A program made the translations under genes and the position numbers. Below the pieces are notes generated by a model. That model saw only the letters and a list, made by a program, of their open reading frames with translations. It searched no databases and was not told where the DNA came from. Source: Acidovorax sp. (GTDB taxonomy: Bacteria; Pseudomonadota; Gammaproteobacteria; Burkholderiales; Burkholderiaceae_C). Taken from it: a stretch of DNA of 64,000 bases. Position 1 is the stretch's first letter. Each line of letters opens with the position of its first letter. Shown one piece after another: positions 2,598 to 54,757 of the stretch. Where the stretch lies: NCBI RefSeq assembly GCF_027492855.1, contig NZ_JAPUDY010000067.1, positions 1,541 through 65,540 on the forward strand. The letters run 5' to 3'.

Positions 2598-2654
2598 AAA
2601 TCAGGCCCTATCGCTTTATCAGAAAGCGCAAATAGCTATCAAATAGTGAGCAAT
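2598..2654 (+). repeat. R1 double-hairpin repeat, copy A
   Basis: aaatcaggccctatcgctttatcagaaagcgcaaatagctatcaaatagtgagcaatc. It abuts the stop codon of the scfR-like gene. Confidence 0.8.
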
Positions 2655-4127
2655 CTATAAAAGCCGTTGTGGATTCGCCACCGGGTACGGCGCCAGCGTG
2701 CTGCGCCGCTCGTCCACCTCCAGCGCCCGCCCCACGGGTGGGAAGGCGCGCTGCGGGCAACTGGTGCGCTCGCACACCTTGCAGCCCATGCCGATGGGCA
2801 CGGCGGCGGCCGGGTCGGCCAGGTTCAGGCCCTTGGCATACACCCAGCGCGGGGCGTGTTCGATGTCGCAGCCCAGCGCCACCGCGTGCAGCTTGCCCGG
2901 TGCACCCCAGGCGCCGCCGCCGTGCTGCACGGTGCGCGCCACCCACAGGTAGGTGCGCCCGTCGGGCATGCGGGCGAGCTGCGTGGCGATGCGGCCCGGC
3001 TGGGCGAAGGCCTCGTACACGTTCCACAGCGGGCAGGTGCCGCCGATGCGCGAAAAGTGGAAATGTGTGGCCGACTGGCGCTTGGAGATGTTGCCCGCCC
3101 GGTCCACGCGGATGAAGATGAACGGAATGCCACGCGCCTGCGGCCGCTGCAGCATGGACAGCCGGTGGCACACCGCCTCGAAACCCACACCAAAGCGCTG
3201 CACCAGGCGCTCGATGTCGTAGCCCTCCTCCTCGGCGGCATGCAAAAAGGCCGAATACGGCATGAGCAGCGCCCCCGCGAAGTAGTTGGCCAGGCCGATG
3301 CGCGCGAGCTGCCGCGCCTCGGGGCTCGACAGGCGCGCATCCTGCGCCAGGCGCTGCAGCACGGGCTCCATCTCCAAAAACGCCAGCTGCGTCGCCATGT
3401 GGAAGTTGCGCTGCCCGCCCTCCAGCCGGTCAGACAGGTACAACACCCCCGAAGCCGCGTCGAACAAACGCAGCGTGCCGCTGTGCAGCACCGGCGCCTC
3501 GGGCCCCGGCGTGACCACGCGCACGCCGTGCTGCTGCTCCAGGCGCTGCTGCAGCACGTGGTCGGCGCGGCGCGGCTCCAGGCCCCACTGCGCGGCGCAG
3601 CGCTCGGCGGCGGCATCGAGCTCGCCCATGTGGTTGTGGTGGGCGAAGAAATAGTCACGCACCTCCTCGTAGGCCATGGGCGGTGGTGCCGGGGCGGCGG
3701 TGCCCTGCTGCCCCGCGCGCTCGTCATCCCAGGGCGCGGCCAGCGCATCCAGCCGCTCCAGCGCCTGCCGGTAGCGCCCGTGCATGCCGATCAGCGTGCG
3801 GGCCACGGCGGGCATGCTGGCGGCCAGTTCGCGGATTTCGGCCAGCGACACCTGCTCCTGCCCCGTGCCGCCTGGCGGCTGGTCGGCCAGCACGTCGTTC
3901 AGGCCCGCGATCAGGCGCGCTTCCTCGTCGTCGGAAAAGCGCTGCACGTCCACACCCAGCGCGGCGCTGATCTTGAGCAGCACCGACACCGTGAGCGGGC
4001 GCTGGTTCTGCTCGATCTGGTTCAGGTAGCTGGCCGACAGGCCCAGCGTGCGCGCCAGCGCCACCTGCGTGAGGCCGCGCTCCTCGCGCAGGCGGCGCAG
4101 TTGCACGCCCATAAAGGTTTTGCGCAT
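2655..4127 (-). CDS. Short-chain fatty acyl-CoA regulator (ScfR/RamB/mycobacterial PrpR type): XRE HTH plus ImmA-like and Cys-cluster C-terminal domain
   Basis: 490-aa ORF with an N-terminal HTH ([26 protein letters not shown]) and a C-terminal CKVCERTSC motif. It is divergent from prpC. Confidence 0.8.
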
Positions 4128-4147
4128 GAACTGTTTTCCTCGTGGTT

Positions 4148-4240
4148 ATTCGCAAACTTCGCAAGTTGCTTGTTTTTCATTCGCAAACCTTCGCCAATTC
4201 AGGGCTTACATTGGGTGAATGGCTTGCGTACATTGCGAAT
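4148..4240. promoter_or_regulatory. Three copies of an 18-bp ATTCGCAAAC-TTCGCAAG-like motif (two direct, one inverted) in the scfR-prpC divergent promoter; candidate ScfR operators
   Basis: Copies are 4148-4165 attcgcaaacttcgcaag, 4179-4197 attcgcaaaccttcgccaa and 4223-4240 cttgcgtacattgcgaat (inverted). They resemble the TTTGCAAA core reported for RamB and M. tuberculosis PrpR. Confidence 0.5.
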
Positions 4241-4298
4241 CATGCACCAGCAAGACACCGGTGCACAACCCTTTTGCAGCAATGGAGAACCACGCGCC

Positions 4299-5462
4299 AT
4301 GACCGAAACCGCCACCCCAGCCGCCACCGCCTTCAAGGCCAAAAAATCCGTTGCGCTGTCGGGCGTGACCGCAGGCAACACGGCCCTGTGCACCGTGGGC
4401 CGCACGGGCAACGACCTGCACTACCGGGGCTACGACATCCTGGACATGGCCGAGGTCTGCGAGTTCGAGGAAATCGCCCACCTGCTGGTGCATGGCAAGC
4501 TGCCCACGCGCCCCGAGCTCAAGGCCTACAAGGCCCGGCTCAAGGCCCTGCGTGGCCTGCCCCTGTCGGTGAAACAGGCGCTGGAGCAACTGCCCGCCGC
4601 CAGCCACCCCATGGACGTGATGCGCACCGGCGTCTCGGCCCTGGGCTGCGCACTGCCCGAAAAGGACGACCACAACCTGCCCGGAGCGCGCGACATTGCC
4701 GATCGGCTCATGGCCTCGCTCGGCTCCATGCTGCTGTACTGGCACCACTGGGCCAGCTCGGGCCGCCGCATCGAGGTGGAAACCCAGGACGACTCCATCG
4801 GCGCGCACTTTTTGCACCTGCTGCACGGCACGCCGCCCAGCGCCGCCTGGGAGCGCGCCATGCACACCTCGCTTAACCTGTATGCCGAGCACGAGTTCAA
4901 CGCCTCCACCTTCACCGCCCGCGTGGTGGCGGGCACGGGCAGCGATGTGTATTCAGCCGTCACCGGCGCCATCGGCGCGCTGCGCGGCCCCAAGCATGGC
5001 GGCGCCAACGAGGTGGCTTTCGAGATCCAGAAACGCTACGACAGCCCCGATGAGGCCGAGGTCGACATCCGCCGCCGCGTCGAGGCCAAGGAGGTTGTGA
5101 TCGGCTTCGGCCACCCGGTCTATACCGTGAGCGACCCGCGCAATGTGGTCATCAAGGGGGTGGCCAAGCAACTGTCCCATGACGCCGGATCGACCAAGAT
5201 GTATGACATTGCCGAGCGGTTGGAGACAGTGATGTGGGAGGTGAAAAAGATGTTTCCCAACCTCGACTGGTTCAGCGCCGTGAGCTACCACATGATGGGC
5301 GTACCCACCGCCATGTTCACGCCGCTGTTCGTCATCGCACGCACCAGCGGCTGGGCCGCGCACATCATCGAGCAGCGGCAGGACAACAAGATCATCCGCC
5401 CCAGCGCCCACTACACCGGGCCGGACGATCTGGCGTTCGTGCCCATCGACGACCGCCGGTAA
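4299..5462 (+). CDS. prpC: 2-methylcitrate synthase
   Basis: In-frame ATG at 4299 inside an artefactual 931-aa [50 protein letters not shown].. is citrate synthase family, 387 aa, and sits in a prp cluster. Confidence 0.9.
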
Positions 5463-5488
5463 ATACTTCGACGCCTCTGCCCCACGCC

Positions 5489-52835: not shown

Positions 52836-53022
52836 ACCCTCTGCCGCCCTTGTGCGCGCCCCCTTTTGGAGAGCGTCACCTATGTAAGTCAGCGCAAGGT
52901 AGTCACATGCTATCCTCGCCCGCAACCAGAGCACCGCATCCCGGACGCACAGAATGGCCAGAGGCGCCCTTCGAACGCCCCTGCCAGCGGCGCCACCCGA
53001 TTTCTAACCTTCGAGGAATTCC

Positions 53023-53679
53023 ATGAGACTGATTCTGTTGGGCGCGCCTGGCGCCGGAAAGGGCACGCAAGCCACGTTCATCTGCCAGAAATACGGCATC
53101 CCCCAGATCTCCACCGGCGACATGCTGCGCGCAGCCGTCAAGGCGGGCACGCCCTTGGGGCTGCAGGCCAAGGCCGTGATGGACTCGGGCGCCCTGGTCA
53201 GTGACGACATCATCATCGGTCTGGTCAAGGAACGCATCACGCAGCCCGACTGCGCCAGCGGCTTCCTGTTCGACGGTTTCCCCCGCACCATTCCCCAGGC
53301 CGACGCCATGAAGGCAGCAGGCGTCAAGCTGGACTACGTGCTCGAAATCGACGTGCCCTTCGACGCCATCATCGAACGCATGAGCGGCCGCCGCTCGCAC
53401 CCCGCCAGCGGCCGCACCTACCACGTCAAGTTCAACCCGCCCAAGGCCGAAGGCAAGGACGACGTGACCGGCGAAGAGCTGATCCAGCGCGAAGACGACA
53501 AGGAAGAAACCGTCAAGAAGCGCCTGCAGGTCTATAGCGACCAGACGCGCCCCCTGGTGGACTACTACAGCAACTGGGCCAAGGCCGAGCCCGCAGCAGC
53601 CCCAAAATACCGTGCCATCAGCGGCACGGGTGGCGTGGAAGAAATCACCGCCCGCGCCTTGCAGGCACTGGCCAGCTGA
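53023..53679 (+). CDS. adk: Adenylate kinase
   Basis: 218 aa, [36 protein letters not shown]. Confidence 0.95.
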
Positions 53680-53731
53680 TGTACGGGGGCTGACCACTGA
53701 TCAGCCCCATCGACGGCCTCAATTCGATGCG

Positions 53732-53760
53732 GCGACGCCCCACAAGGGCGTCGCTTTTTT
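53732..53760 (+). terminator. Rho-independent terminator after adk
   Basis: gcgacgccc-cacaa-gggcgtcgctttttt. Confidence 0.8.
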
Positions 53761-53797
53761 CATGGTGCAGCAGCGCCCTGCGCCGCACAGGTCTCTG

Positions 53798-54757
53798 TCA
53801 GCCCGCGCGCAGCAAATCAAGCACCAGCGCCACCCGCGCCTTCACCGGCGACAACCCCCGCGAGTCTGGGAACACATCTCCCGGCTTGGGCAGCACCTGC
53901 CCCTCGGCGCAGCGGGTGGCACGCACCACCTGCACCCCCGCATCCTGCGCGCGCAGCAAAGCGGCCTCCAAGGCGTGGTGAATGGTTCCGTTGCCGGTGC
54001 AGGCCACCACCAGGCCTTGCACCCCGTCGCGCACCAGGGCATCCACCCCTCGGCCCGTGGCCCCGGCATGGCTGACAACCACTTCGACCCAGGGCCATTC
54101 GCCAGCATTTGCTATATTTTCAATAGCACCTTGCGATTGACCAACCTGCGCTAGAGGCCAATTTTCTACCAAACGCACCCGCCCCTCCTCCACCCATCCC
54201 AAAGGCCCGGCATCGCCCGAATGAAAGGCATGCACTCGGTAGGGATGCGCTTTTTGCACGTAACGCGCACCGTGGATTTCCCCGGCGGCCACCAGCATCA
54301 CTCCCGTGGCGCCGGGGGCCTGCACCACGGCCACGGCATCAAGCAGGTTCTGCGGACCATCGGGCGTGAGGGCCGTGGCGGGGCGCATGGCGCAGGTCAG
54401 CACCACGGGCTTGCGGGCATCCAGCACCTCGTGCAAAAACCATGCGGTTTCTTCCAGGGTATCGGTGCCGTGCGTGATGACCAGGCCCCGCACCTCAGGG
54501 TCGTTCAAATGGTGCGCGCAGCGCAAGGCCAAGGCCCGCCACACCGCGCAGTCCATGTCCTTGCTGTCGACCTGGGCCACCTGCTCCGCCACCAGTGCGC
54601 CACCCGCCATGGCTTGCAACCCCGGAACGGCAGCCAACAGCTGTGCCACCCCCACCTGGGCAGCGGTGTAGCCAATGTTGTCCCCCGCCTGCGCCGAGGT
54701 GCCTGCAATCGTGCCCCCGGTGCCTAAAACCACAATTTTTTGCCCACTCACTTGCAT
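53798..54757 (-). CDS. L-asparaginase (no signal peptide) carrying an in-frame R1 copy
   Basis: 319 aa with VVLGTGGTIAG and ITHGTDTLEETAWFL. Confidence 0.85.
   Translation of the reverse strand: MQVSGQKIVVLGTGGTIAGTSAQAGDNIGYTAAQVGVAQLLAAVPGLQAMAGGALVAEQVAQVDSKDMDCAVWRALALRCAHHLNDPEVRGLVITHGTDTLEETAWFLHEVLDARKPVVLTCAMRPATALTPDGPQNLLDAVAVVQAPGATGVMLVAAGEIHGARYVQKAHPYRVHAFHSGDAGPLGWVEEGRVRLVENWPLAQVGQSQGAIENIANAGEWPWVEVVVSHAGATGRGVDALVRDGVQGLVVACTGNGTIHHALEAALLRAQDAGVQVVRATRCAEGQVLPKPGDVFPDSRGLSPVKARVALVLDLLRAG
54107..54165 (-). repeat. R1 copy N inside the asparaginase gene (in frame; encodes ENWPLAQVGQSQGAIENIANA)
   Basis: atttgctatattttcaatagcaccttgcgattgaccaacctgcgctagaggccaatttt. Confidence 0.75.

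What the first reader, a model, noticed from the sequence alone, without database searches (positions are those of the whole stretch)
2598..54165. R1: a 55-60 bp double-hairpin repeat family, 14 copies in 64 kb, with compensatory stem changes
Copies lie at 2598, 8101, 9356, 17484, 25747, 28133, 33471, 40569, 44253, 46928 (inverted), 48117, 48579, 51607 and 54107 (inverted). My hand alignment gives the approximate consensus AAAAATrGCynTAGCGCTTATCnAnCAAGCGCAAGCAGCTATCAAAnnnnTAGCAAAT. Hairpin 1 (GCTnnnAGCGCTT / AAGCGCnnnAGC) is kept by paired substitutions. Copy D has CTAGCGCTT/AAGCGCTAG, copy E has GCTGCCAGCGCTT/AAGCGCTGGCAGC, and copy G has AGCTGCTTTCGCTT/AAGCGCAAGCAGCT. Hairpin 2 is GCTAT-N7-ATAGC (copies D, F and J are perfect). 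Covariation suggests selection on structure, not only on sequence. No transposase lies in the window. The density, about one per 4.5 kb, is REP/MITE-like. I cannot match the sequence to a named repeat family from memory. Read on the opposite strand, the element ends in a T-run like a terminator. That could explain some placements, but not those inside operons or genes.
Basis: seen in the sequence. Interest (0 to 1): 0.8.

Follow-up and report, generated by a model that had tools for sequence, protein, structure and literature searches.

The report
REP-like palindromic repeat of Comamonadaceae

Summary
The repeat is real. A covariance model finds 11 strong copies (51-73 bits) and 2 degenerate in-gene copies. 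The 14th claimed copy (48117) is not supported, and copy 51607 lies on the opposite strand to the one stated.

The unit is about 67 bp: aTTTcAAGcc-AAAT-GGCCTCTAGCGCTT-N7-AAGCGCtAGCAGCTAT-N7-ATAGCAAT. The same element occurs in Acidovorax, Simplicispira, Giesbergeria, Ottowia, Comamonas, Curvibacter, Rhodoferax and other Comamonadaceae.

Copies sit a median 7-13 nt from stop codons. They are enriched between convergent genes (33% vs 16%), depleted between divergent genes (5% vs 15%), and occur in both orientations.

Covariation is not significant: paired cells equal the shuffled controls. I found no target-site duplication, no terminal inverted repeats, no bias against GC skew, no transposase and no near-identical copies.

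Copies are gained and lost between Acidovorax species, while others persist or decay at orthologous sites.

Best reading: an undescribed REP-like dispersed element with an unknown mobiliser. Its probable host effect is a 3'-end RNA hairpin or weak terminator.

Side findings: the loop occurs in both orientations, there are in-frame coding copies, and copies occur inside ORF-less class 1 integron cassettes.

The parts
2586..2661 (+). Copy A. Lies between two minus-strand genes. Its 3' end supplies the stop codon (CTA on +) of the ScfR-type regulator gene 2655-4127(-).
   Evidence: 51.0 bits
8089..8164 (+). Copy B. Fills the acnD-prpF gap. The acnD stop TAG (8105-8107) lies in the 5' box, and the prpF ATG (8153) lies in the 3' box.
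   Evidence: 58.6 bits
9346..9421 (+). Copy C. Fills the gap between the prpF stop (9355) and the ATG (9417) of the PEP-mutase/methylisocitrate-lyase-type gene.
   Evidence: 73.5 bits
17474..17549 (+). Copy D. Has a perfect 9-bp inner stem and a perfect hairpin 2. It is the only copy in the first 20 kb that the terminator scan flags (on the - strand).
   Evidence: 68.8 bits
25735..25810 (+). Copy E. Has a perfect 15-bp stem and lies upstream of the ParD-like gene. The site is empty in three related Acidovorax genomes.
   Evidence: 58.1 bits
28123..28198 (+). Copy F. Lies in the divergent gap between the panE/apbA-type gene (-) and the marR gene (+). The site upstream of marR is also filled in Acidovorax sp. 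69 and in the MAG locus L260. No copy was detected there in sp. 93.
   Evidence: 53.5 bits
33461..33536 (+). Copy G. Starts right after the stop of the MFS efflux gene (33465-33467). Its 3' box is T-rich, so it looks like a terminator on the sense strand. The site is filled in Acidovorax sp. 93. In sp. 69 an ordinary terminator occupies the same place.
   Evidence: 68.5 bits
40557..40632 (+). Copy H. Its 5' box reads TTTTT instead of AAAAT, and its loop is ATCCATC, the master loop sequence.
   Evidence: 67.0 bits
44242..44317 (+). Copy I. Lies between the convergent DUF4377 gene (+) and icd (-).
   Evidence: 64.4 bits
46922..46997 (-). Copy J. Lies between the convergent DUF192 gene (+) and sodB (-), next to an ordinary bidirectional terminator. 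Orthologous copies exist in three other Acidovorax genomes, and two of them are decayed.
   Evidence: 61.3 bits
48567..48642 (+). Degenerate copy inside xseA (gene on the - strand). It encodes ...LSKLYLLAQAGQAPGADL..., where E. coli XseA has a roughly 14-residue gap. The orthologous position is kept in L198 and L199.
   Evidence: 38.7 bits
51591..51666 (-). Degenerate copy inside lpxK (gene on the + strand). It encodes [22 protein letters not shown]. The orthologous position is kept in L198 and L199.
   Evidence: (34.8 bits)
54101..54176 (-). Copy N. Lies in frame inside the asparaginase gene 53801-54757(-) and encodes the inter-domain linker ENWPLAQVGQSQGAIENIANA. The same linker motif is found in homologues from Acidovorax and Verminephrobacter.
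   Evidence: 55.5 bits
48105..48180 (+). Claimed copy at 48117. Not supported: 10.5 bits, E 0.63.
47019..47046 (.). Ordinary bidirectional intrinsic terminator, AAAAAAACGGCCCGAGGGCCGTTTTTTT, beside copy J. It is context for the finding, not part of the repeat.

Best explanation
R1 is a previously undescribed family of REP-like (repetitive extragenic palindromic) elements native to the Comamonadaceae. It is non-coding and non-autonomous.

Anatomy. Each unit is about 67 bp and about 40% G+C, in a 65% G+C genome. It has:
- an A/T-rich 5' box (TTTCAAGCC + AAAT or TTTTT);
- an imperfect palindrome with a 6-9 bp GC-rich inner stem, two conserved mismatches and a 3-bp outer stem;
- a 7-nt loop;
- a strongly conserved asymmetric 3' box (GCAGCTAT-N7-ATAGCAAT).

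Shown:
- Copies accumulate where they are tolerated: just behind stop codons, between convergent genes and inside operons, in either orientation. They often supply the stop codon or the C-terminal tail of the upstream gene.
- Copies are gained and lost between species. Some persist for a long time and decay.

Inferred:
- New copies are made in trans by an enzyme that recognises the hairpin plus the asymmetric box, as RAYT transposases do for REPs. That enzyme has not been identified.
- When transcribed, the element gives a stable 3'-end hairpin. Where a U tract follows it, it can act as a weak intrinsic terminator or as a barrier to exonucleases.

The apparent compensatory changes come from the palindromic consensus and from exchange between the two arms at the DNA level. 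The loop also occurs inverted. Neither observation points to selection on an RNA fold.
For: Reality and spread:
- 13 copies in the window.
- 185 copies were harvested from those loci.
- The window itself is from an Acidovorax species.

REP-like placement, from 159 intergenic copies:
- convergent 33%, against 16% of all gaps;
- divergent 5%, against 15%;
- co-directional 60 in the opposite and 38 in the same orientation as the genes;
- median 7-13 nt to the nearest stop codon.
The stop lies inside the 5' box for about 45 of 97 upstream genes.

Gain and loss:
- The acnD-prpF gap is filled, eroded or empty in different lineages.
- The lptG-cbiX gap is 10-26 bp in the window and in FJL06, but 116 bp with one copy in a related MAG.
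- Sites E, F and G differ among Acidovorax sp. 69, sp. 93 and the window.

Decay without selection: the hairpin at the sodB site is lost in two of four species, while the adjacent terminator stays identical.

Folding: -16 to -35 kcal/mol, z from -1.7 to -6.4, on both strands.

Terminator-like use:
- The 3' box is T-rich in 40% of copies when a gene reads into the element, against 22% otherwise (p 0.025).
- At site G an ordinary terminator takes the element's place in sp. 69.

DNA-level arm exchange: the loop master ATCCATC (47 copies) and its reverse complement GATGGAT (36 copies) both occur, against about 3 each expected by chance.
Against: - No mobilising enzyme was found. Genes flanked by inverted copies are housekeeping genes.
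- The REP hallmark, a GTAG next to the palindrome, is absent. Copies are singlets, not REPIN doublets.
- There are no near-identical copies. The closest within-genome pair is 81% identical. Within-genome identity is 0.617 and between-genome identity 0.590. There is therefore no sign of recent bursts, although some positions remain more than 90% conserved across genera. That pattern could instead mean selection on a sequence-specific function.
- Several copies do not look like simple insertions. Their ends coincide with native coding sequence that already resembles them. In-gene copies add almost no length compared with distant homologues.
- Gene calls in the loci come from a crude codon-bias caller, so the context counts are approximate.
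Confidence: 0.65

Rival explanations
1. R1 is a selected RNA element: a family of intrinsic terminators, or of mRNA 3'-end stabilising or processing hairpins, kept at each site because the host needs it.
For: - Copies lie just behind stop codons and are enriched between convergent genes.
- The hairpins are stable.
- The 5' box is A-rich in about 65% of copies, which gives a U tract on the opposite strand. The 3' box is T-rich more often when a gene reads forward into the element.
- At site G an ordinary terminator replaces the element in sp. 69.
- Wobble-preserving transitions dominate the variation in hairpin 2: G.U 17 and U.G 28.
Against: - There is no covariation beyond the shuffled controls.
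- Two stem positions are conserved as mismatches.
- Both orientations are common, 60 against 38.
- A-richness of the 5' box does not depend on context.
- Copies B and C sit inside the prp operon.
- Copy J sits beside a perfect ordinary terminator and decays in relatives.
- Only 1 of the 4 copies in the first 20 kb passes a simple terminator scan.
Confidence: 0.15
2. R1 is a DNA binding site for a conserved Comamonadaceae protein, such as a nucleoid-associated or topology-related factor as at E. coli BIMEs. Sequence-specific selection on the asymmetric motif would keep it conserved.
For: - The 3' box GCAGCTAT and the inner arms are more than 90% conserved across genera, while the rest of the element is randomised.
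- The stem mismatches are conserved.
- The A and T tracts are interchangeable.
- Orientation is nearly free with respect to genes and to GC skew.
- About half of the copies carry a WATCAA-like core that resembles half of the IHF consensus. The IHF consensus is from my own knowledge; the full site is not matched.
Against: - Orthologous copies decay, and sites are gained and lost between close species.
- Copies occur inside coding regions.
- No candidate protein is known.
- The number of copies, hundreds per genome by extrapolation, and their placement behind genes fit tolerated selfish DNA at least as well.
Confidence: 0.1
3. R1 is a MITE: an internally deleted derivative of an insertion sequence, moved by a DDE transposase.
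For: It is short and dispersed, shows presence/absence polymorphism, and is also found in phage-like contigs and plasmids.
Against: - There are no terminal inverted repeats. The only inverted repeat is the central palindrome.
- Direct repeats across the two ends are no more frequent than between shuffled partners.
- No parent IS was found.
Confidence: 0.04
4. R1 is a DNA-uptake-signal-like motif, spread by biased uptake and homologous replacement rather than by transposition.
For: - The conservation is family-wide.
- The inverted arms lie behind genes.
- In-gene copies cause almost no change in protein length, and element ends merge with similar native sequence.
Against: - The unit is a fixed architecture of about 67 bp, far longer than the 9-12 bp uptake signals known to me.
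- It appears as a block insertion in the lptG-cbiX gap.
- I know of no uptake specificity in this family; this was not tested.
Confidence: 0.03

Closest known systems
REP / BIME elements of Enterobacteria and Pseudomonas (REP-RAYT, REPIN systems)
   Same: - Short imperfect palindrome, with hundreds of copies per genome by extrapolation.
- Extragenic, clustered just behind stop codons and between convergent genes, rare in promoter regions, and found in both orientations.
- No target-site duplications and no coding capacity.
- Long-lived and vertically inherited, with gain and loss.
- Possible role as an mRNA 3'-end hairpin.
   Different: - No conserved GTAG next to the palindrome.
- About 67 bp with two asymmetric A/T-rich boxes, rather than about 35 bp.
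- Copies are singlets, not inverted doublets.
- No RAYT gene was found.
- The same sequence is conserved across many genera. By my own recollection, REP sequences usually differ between species.
- No abundant identical 'master' copies.
Rickettsia palindromic elements (RPE)
   Same: It is a palindromic repeat that is also found in frame inside intact protein-coding genes, where it encodes loop or linker peptides. Examples are the asparaginase linker, xseA and lpxK.
   Different: Most R1 copies are intergenic. The in-gene copies add little or no net length compared with distant homologues. There is no sequence relation and the host group is different. The RPE properties are from my own knowledge.
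BRE, the beta-proteobacterial repeat element (Hot et al. 2011, PMC3110155)
   Same: It is a dispersed intergenic repeat reported in Bordetella and Comamonadaceae. It sometimes overlaps gene ends or lies inside genes.
   Different: The sequence is different. BRE is 75-91 bp, 69% G+C and often tandem. BRE coexists with R1 as a separate family: one copy lies in the window at 50206-50287, and one lies next to an R1 copy in L199.
Intrinsic (rho-independent) terminators
   Same: A GC-rich hairpin behind genes. Many copies have an A tract before the hairpin and/or a T tract after it. At site G one relative has an ordinary terminator at the same place.
   Different: R1 is a conserved sequence family rather than a set of idiosyncratic hairpins. 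The U tract is short, is separated from the strong inner stem by an imperfect outer stem, and is often absent. Copies occur inside operons and inside genes.

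Membership tests
REP / REPIN-RAYT | Short imperfect palindrome, many dispersed extragenic copies, preference for gene 3' ends | tested here: met
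   13 copies in 64 kb. 194 copies across the family. Convergent gaps 33% vs 16%, divergent 5% vs 15%, median 7-13 nt from stop codons.
REP / REPIN-RAYT | Conserved GTAG/GTGG tetranucleotide directly flanking the palindrome | tested here: not met
   The consensus of 194 copies has none next to the palindrome. The only (A/G)TAG lies in the 3' box, about 15 nt away.
REP / REPIN-RAYT | A RAYT (Y1/HUH transposase) gene in the same genome, flanked by the repeats | not testable with these tools
   The whole genome is not available. As a partial test, tblastn with two Y1 sequences recalled from memory over 1.29 Mb of held DNA found only an ordinary IS200 with unrelated ends. Ten genes bracketed by copies are housekeeping genes.
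REP / REPIN-RAYT | Inverted doublets (REPINs) as the common unit | tested here: not met
   Only a handful of copy pairs lie within 500 bp of each other. Most copies are singlets.
MITE | Terminal inverted repeats | tested here: not met
   The 5' box (TTTCAAGCC AAAT) and the 3' box (ATAGCAAT) are not complementary. The only inverted repeat is central.
MITE | Target-site duplication | tested here: not met
   For 3-6-mers at every pair of offsets, matches between the two flanks equal those between shuffled partners.
Intrinsic terminator | GC-rich stem followed directly by a U tract, at ends of transcription units | tested here: inconclusive
   One of the four copies in the first 20 kb passes the scan. 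The 5' box is A-rich in about 65% of copies in every context. A T-rich 3' box is associated with a gene reading in (p 0.025). Copies B and C lie inside an operon.
Structured RNA family (Rfam) | Match to a curated covariance model; covariation that supports the fold | tested here: not met
   No hit at gathering thresholds, and none on the element at E up to 10. Covariation equals the shuffled controls.
BRE (Hot et al. 2011) | Sequence similarity to the published BRE copies | tested here: not met
   The BRE sequences in the paper's supplement are unrelated. A true BRE copy is present separately in the window at 50206-50287.
Integron attC site | R''/R' core sites (RYYYAAC ... GTTRRRY) bounding the inverted repeat | tested here: not met
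   In the cassettes that carry R1, a separate canonical attC (GTCTAAC ... GTTAG) ends each cassette. R1 lies in the cassette body.

The most novel reading that the evidence does not exclude
R1 is not just tolerated selfish DNA. It is a portable 3'-end module that Comamonadaceae use in place of ordinary terminators. The module supplies stop codons in its 5' box, a hairpin, and an optional U tract. A dedicated, still unknown hairpin-recognising enzyme keeps it uniform across the whole family, and the inverted loops are that enzyme's footprint. The module enters sites by microhomology-guided replacement rather than by cut-and-paste insertion. It has also been packaged into ORF-less integron cassettes that now travel on clinical class 1 integrons.
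Probability: 0.12. Interest if true: 0.7.

Novelty: new member of a known kind. Interest (0 to 1): 0.42.

Why it matters
- By extrapolation, several hundred copies per genome make R1 a major and so far unnamed component of Acidovorax and related genomes. These organisms are common in water, soil, plants and wastewater.
- Knowing the element improves annotation. It creates the C-terminal tails, stop codons and even start codons of real genes, and it encodes linker peptides in three proteins here.
- It explains many intergenic 'conserved hairpins' that could otherwise be taken for riboswitches or small RNAs.
- Its sequence is a taxonomic tag. Finding it inside ORF-less class 1 integron cassettes on IncP and IncF plasmids points to Comamonadaceae as the place where those cassettes arose.
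- It offers a REP-like system without the usual GTAG/RAYT signature, in which the mobilising activity remains to be found.

Tried and rejected
- Rfam at gathering thresholds and at permissive E-values gave nothing on the element.
- tRNA/tmRNA scan found none.
- Literature: no paper contains the sequence. The BRE lead was rejected on sequence. The RAYT survey paper lists no Comamonadaceae. Two broader searches were uninformative.
- Covariation gave no signal.
- Target-site duplication and terminal inverted repeats were not found.
- Replication-strand bias, using GC skew as a proxy, was 97:99, so none. The proxy is noisy on 8-kb loci.
- A transposase bracketed by inverted copies: ten candidates were all housekeeping genes.
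- Y1 transposase by tblastn found only an unrelated IS200.
- Promoter idea (-35 in the loop, -10 at GCTATCAA): only copy D passes the scan, and the depletion from divergent gaps argues against it.
- Sigma-54 promoter, attC site and a full IHF site were checked by eye against consensus sequences I recalled, and do not fit.
- Exact-protein look-ups of the window's own PrpF and of the 100%-identical MetE found no record, so the source contig could not be fetched.
- The metagenome scan gave no relative closer than 86% PrpF identity.

Full report

The core pattern AGCGCTT-N7-AAGCGC, with up to two mismatches, occurs 27 times on the two strands. Dinucleotide shuffles give 3.8 +/- 2.4.

A profile HMM built from eleven hand-extracted copies recovers those eleven at E <= 2e-14. 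It also finds weaker matches at 51597-51655 (- strand, E 1e-6), 48575-48632 (E 1.5e-4) and 48113-48155 (E 2e-3).

A covariance model built from 74 family members was run over the window without filters:
- eleven copies score 51-73.5 bits;
- 48567-48642 scores 38.7 bits;
- 51591-51666 (- strand) scores 34.8 bits;
- the claimed copy at 48117 scores only 10.5 bits (E 0.63);
- no further copies appear.

So 13 of the 14 claimed copies stand.

**2. What the unit looks like**

I aligned 194 copies: 11 from the window and the rest from other genomes. Conservation runs over about 67 bp:

aTTTtgAGTcAAATtGGCCTCTAGCGCTT-N7-AAGCGCtAGCAGCTATcAATTtaATAGCAat

The consensus is 40% G+C, in a window of about 65% G+C.

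Pairing in hairpin 1 is as follows:
- The six inner pairs, GCGCTT/AAGCGC, are paired in 91-99% of copies.
- The next three pairs are paired in 52-76% of copies.
- Two positions follow that are conserved as mismatches: T.C in 60% and C.A in 75% of copies.
- Three outer pairs close the stem.

The 3' arm and the box GCAGCTAT are the most invariant part of the element. Hairpin 2 has three solid pairs (GCT/AGC) and two weak ones. Its GC overlaps the outer stem of hairpin 1, so the two structures compete. Both strands are predicted to fold, at -16 to -35 kcal/mol with z from -1.7 to -6.4.

**3. Covariation**

I tested this on 74 copies that had not been selected by my search pattern.
- For the full hairpin 1, 68.7% of cells form standard pairs. 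The mean is 68.8% when the 3' letters are shuffled among copies.
- For the inner hairpin 1 plus hairpin 2, the figures are 79.9% and 79.8%.
- Covariation scores equal the shuffled means: 0.094 vs 0.091, and 0.122 vs 0.122.

On all 194 copies, two positions show a weak association in the pairing direction (p 0.007 and 0.027).

The complementarity therefore belongs to the palindromic consensus. The few double changes are what the column composition predicts.

**4. Where else it occurs**

The organisms named are Acidovorax (most hits), Simplicispira, Giesbergeria, Ottowia, Comamonas, Curvibacter, Rhodoferax, Albidiferax, Extensimonas and Paenacidovorax, plus unnamed Burkholderiales MAGs.

The window itself is from an Acidovorax species. 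Its MetE is 100% identical to a protein from an Acidovorax sp. contig of 65.8 kb, and its asparaginase is 85-93% identical to Acidovorax proteins.

The element is not in Rfam, even at E up to 10. Its sequence appears in no paper of the library. It is distinct from the BRE repeat of Bordetella and Comamonadaceae. BRE is present separately, at window 50206-50287 and in L199.

**5. Placement**

I called genes in all loci with a codon-bias method. It is crude, and its coding fraction is 0.84. Of 196 copies, 177 are intergenic. For the 159 with both neighbours called:

| Context | Copies | Share | Share of all gaps |
|---|---|---|---|
| Convergent genes | 53 | 33% | 16% |
| Divergent genes | 8 | 5% | 15% |
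| Co-directional, element opposite to the genes | 60 | 38% | co-directional gaps together: 69% |
| Co-directional, element in the same sense | 38 | 24% | (see row above) |

The nearest stop codon is a median 7-13 nt away, and the next start codon 27-30 nt away.

For about 45 of 97 genes that read forward into a copy, the stop codon lies inside the 5' box. Stop-containing variants of that box (TTTGAG, TTTAAG, TTTTAG) are commoner in that context: 67%, against 44% elsewhere.

In the window:
- Copy B supplies the acnD stop and abuts the prpF start.
- Copy C fills the gap between prpF and the next gene exactly.
- Copy A supplies the stop of the regulator gene.

This is the classical REP/BIME distribution. 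It argues against a promoter or operator role.

**6. Signs of mobility, and their limits**

Gain and loss:
- The acnD-prpF gap is filled in the window and in six metagenomic relatives. It is visibly eroded in two and lacks the element in five. In some filled sites the AcnD tail and stop, and even the prpF ATG, are encoded by the element.
- The lptG-cbiX gap is 10-26 bp in the window and in strain FJL06. In a related MAG it is 116 bp, made up of one R1 copy plus one BRE copy.
- Site E is filled only in the window. No copy was detected at site F in sp. 93. Site G is filled in the window and in sp. 93, but holds an ordinary terminator in sp. 69.

Persistence and decay:
- The copy between sodB and the DUF192 gene is shared by four Acidovorax genomes. 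In two of them the hairpin has decayed, while the adjacent ordinary terminator remains identical.

Negative results:
- There are no target-site duplications and no terminal inverted repeats.
- Orientation does not follow GC skew, at 97:99.
- There are no near-identical copies. The maximum within-genome identity is 81%, and the means are 0.617 within genomes and 0.590 between them.
- No transposase was found in the window ORFs tested, between inverted copies, or by tblastn with Y1 transposase sequences recalled from memory over 1.29 Mb. That search gave a single ordinary IS200 with unrelated ends.

**7. Hints about function**

- The 5' box is A-rich in about 65% of copies in every context. This gives a short U tract after the hairpin on the opposite strand.
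- The 3' box is either A-rich or T-rich. It is T-rich in 40% of copies that a gene reads into, and in 22% of the others (Fisher p 0.025).
- Together with the exchange at site G, this suggests that some copies serve as terminators or 3'-end hairpins.
- Against a general role of that kind: both orientations are common, copies lie inside operons, copy J lies beside a real terminator, only one of the four copies in the first 20 kb passes a terminator scan, and covariation is absent.

**8. Unexpected details**

(a) The loop has a master sequence that occurs in both orientations. ATCCATC accounts for 47 copies within two mismatches, and its reverse complement GATGGAT for 36. About 3 of each are expected by chance. 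Both forms occur within single genomes, with the same asymmetric flanks. This points to inversion or template switching between the inner arms at the DNA level. The same process would produce apparent 'compensatory' changes without any selection on RNA.

(b) Three copies in the window lie in frame inside genes.
- The asparaginase linker is ENWPLAQ...AIENIAN. The motif is shared by homologues from Acidovorax and Verminephrobacter, and the linker is only about 3 residues longer than in the best-matching solved asparaginase (3nxk).
- The xseA copy encodes a segment where E. coli XseA has a gap of about 14 residues.
- The lpxK copy adds about 2 residues compared with the Aquifex enzyme.
- All three in-gene sites carry matches at the orthologous position in related Acidovorax loci L198 and L199; in L200 none was detected.
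- The consensus has two open forward reading frames.

(c) At two sites an end of the element coincides with native coding sequence that already resembles it. These are the cbiX N-terminus against the 3' box and the acnD C-terminus against the 5' box. Simple insertion does not explain this, nor the length-neutral in-gene copies. I leave it unexplained.

(d) The element also occurs in other kinds of DNA.
- It is found in 57 IMG/VR contigs and on Comamonadaceae megaplasmids.
- On the IncP plasmid pYKBP039, six 319-bp cassettes that are 81% alike each carry one copy plus a separate canonical attC.
- On a Citrobacter freundii IncF plasmid, one such cassette is interrupted by an IS481-family element.

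**9. Verdict**

R1 is a genuine repeat that, as far as I could find, has not been described. It belongs to a known kind: REP-like dispersed palindromic elements. It does not meet the strict REP-RAYT or MITE definitions. The claim of structural covariation does not hold.

The mechanism of spread is inferred, not shown. So is any host function.

Noticed in passing
Family-wide; for example window 40557-40632 (loop ATCCATC), L097 and L053 (loop GATGGAT): The 7-nt loop of hairpin 1 has a master sequence that occurs in both orientations relative to the asymmetric flanks. 47 copies are near ATCCATC and 36 are near its reverse complement, against about 3 each expected by chance. This suggests inversion or template switching between the arms.
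   Followed up: partly
window 54101-54176 (asparaginase), 48567-48642 (xseA), 51591-51666 (lpxK): Copies lie in frame inside intact genes and encode linker or loop peptides. Matches are kept at the same positions in related Acidovorax loci L198 and L199 (none detected in L200). They add little net length compared with distant homologues.
   Followed up: partly
L259 (plasmid pYKBP039, LC623924) 2366-4159; L258 (Citrobacter freundii pNFYY361-2) 3885-4100: Class 1 integrons carry ORF-less cassettes of about 319 bp. There are six in a row on the IncP plasmid. Each contains one R1 copy plus its own canonical attC. In the Citrobacter plasmid, the annotated IS481-family transposase gene begins just after the attC R'' core. 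This suggests that these cassettes arose in Comamonadaceae.
   Followed up: partly
window 50206-50287 (-); L199 736-824: A copy of the BRE repeat of Hot et al. 2011, a different family, lies between exbB and exbD in the window. Another lies directly beside an R1 copy in the lptG-cbiX gap of a related MAG.
   Followed up: partly
window 33461-33536 vs L262 about 19895-19990: Directly after the same MFS efflux gene, the window and Acidovorax sp. 93 carry R1. Acidovorax sp. 69 instead carries an ordinary intrinsic terminator (AAAACGGCGGTGCTTCC...GGAAGCACCGCCGTTTTTT).
   Followed up: partly
window 8089-8110 with L122, L125 and L130; L199 672-731 vs window 63768-63790: Element ends coincide with native coding sequence that already resembles them. 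The acnD C-terminal codons GAC TTT CTG GCC resemble the 5' box, and the cbiX N-terminal codons GCC ATC ATT CTG resemble the 3' box. This hints at microhomology at the entry sites.
   Followed up: no
window 24677-25740 and 26223-27078: There is about 1 kb of extra DNA between metE and the ParD-like gene, and a stretch after that gene, with lower G+C (about 0.61). The ORFs have no Pfam match. In related Acidovorax genomes metE or apbA abuts parD, and a zeta-toxin gene follows parD; the window appears to lack that gene.
   Followed up: no
window 47019-47046: A perfect bidirectional intrinsic terminator (A7-hairpin-T7) lies downstream of sodB. Its core is identical in four Acidovorax genomes, while the R1 copy beside it decays.
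   Followed up: yes
L034 7141-7563 (-): An ordinary IS200-type Y1 transposase gene in Acidovorax temperans, with GC-rich end hairpins unrelated to R1. It was the only Y1 hit in the 1.29 Mb of DNA held.
   Followed up: yes
L201-L257 (IMG/VR contigs): 57 virus-classified contigs, mostly 55-69% G+C, carry exact matches to the R1 pattern. I did not check whether these lie in phage genes, in prophage flanks or in host DNA.
   Followed up: no
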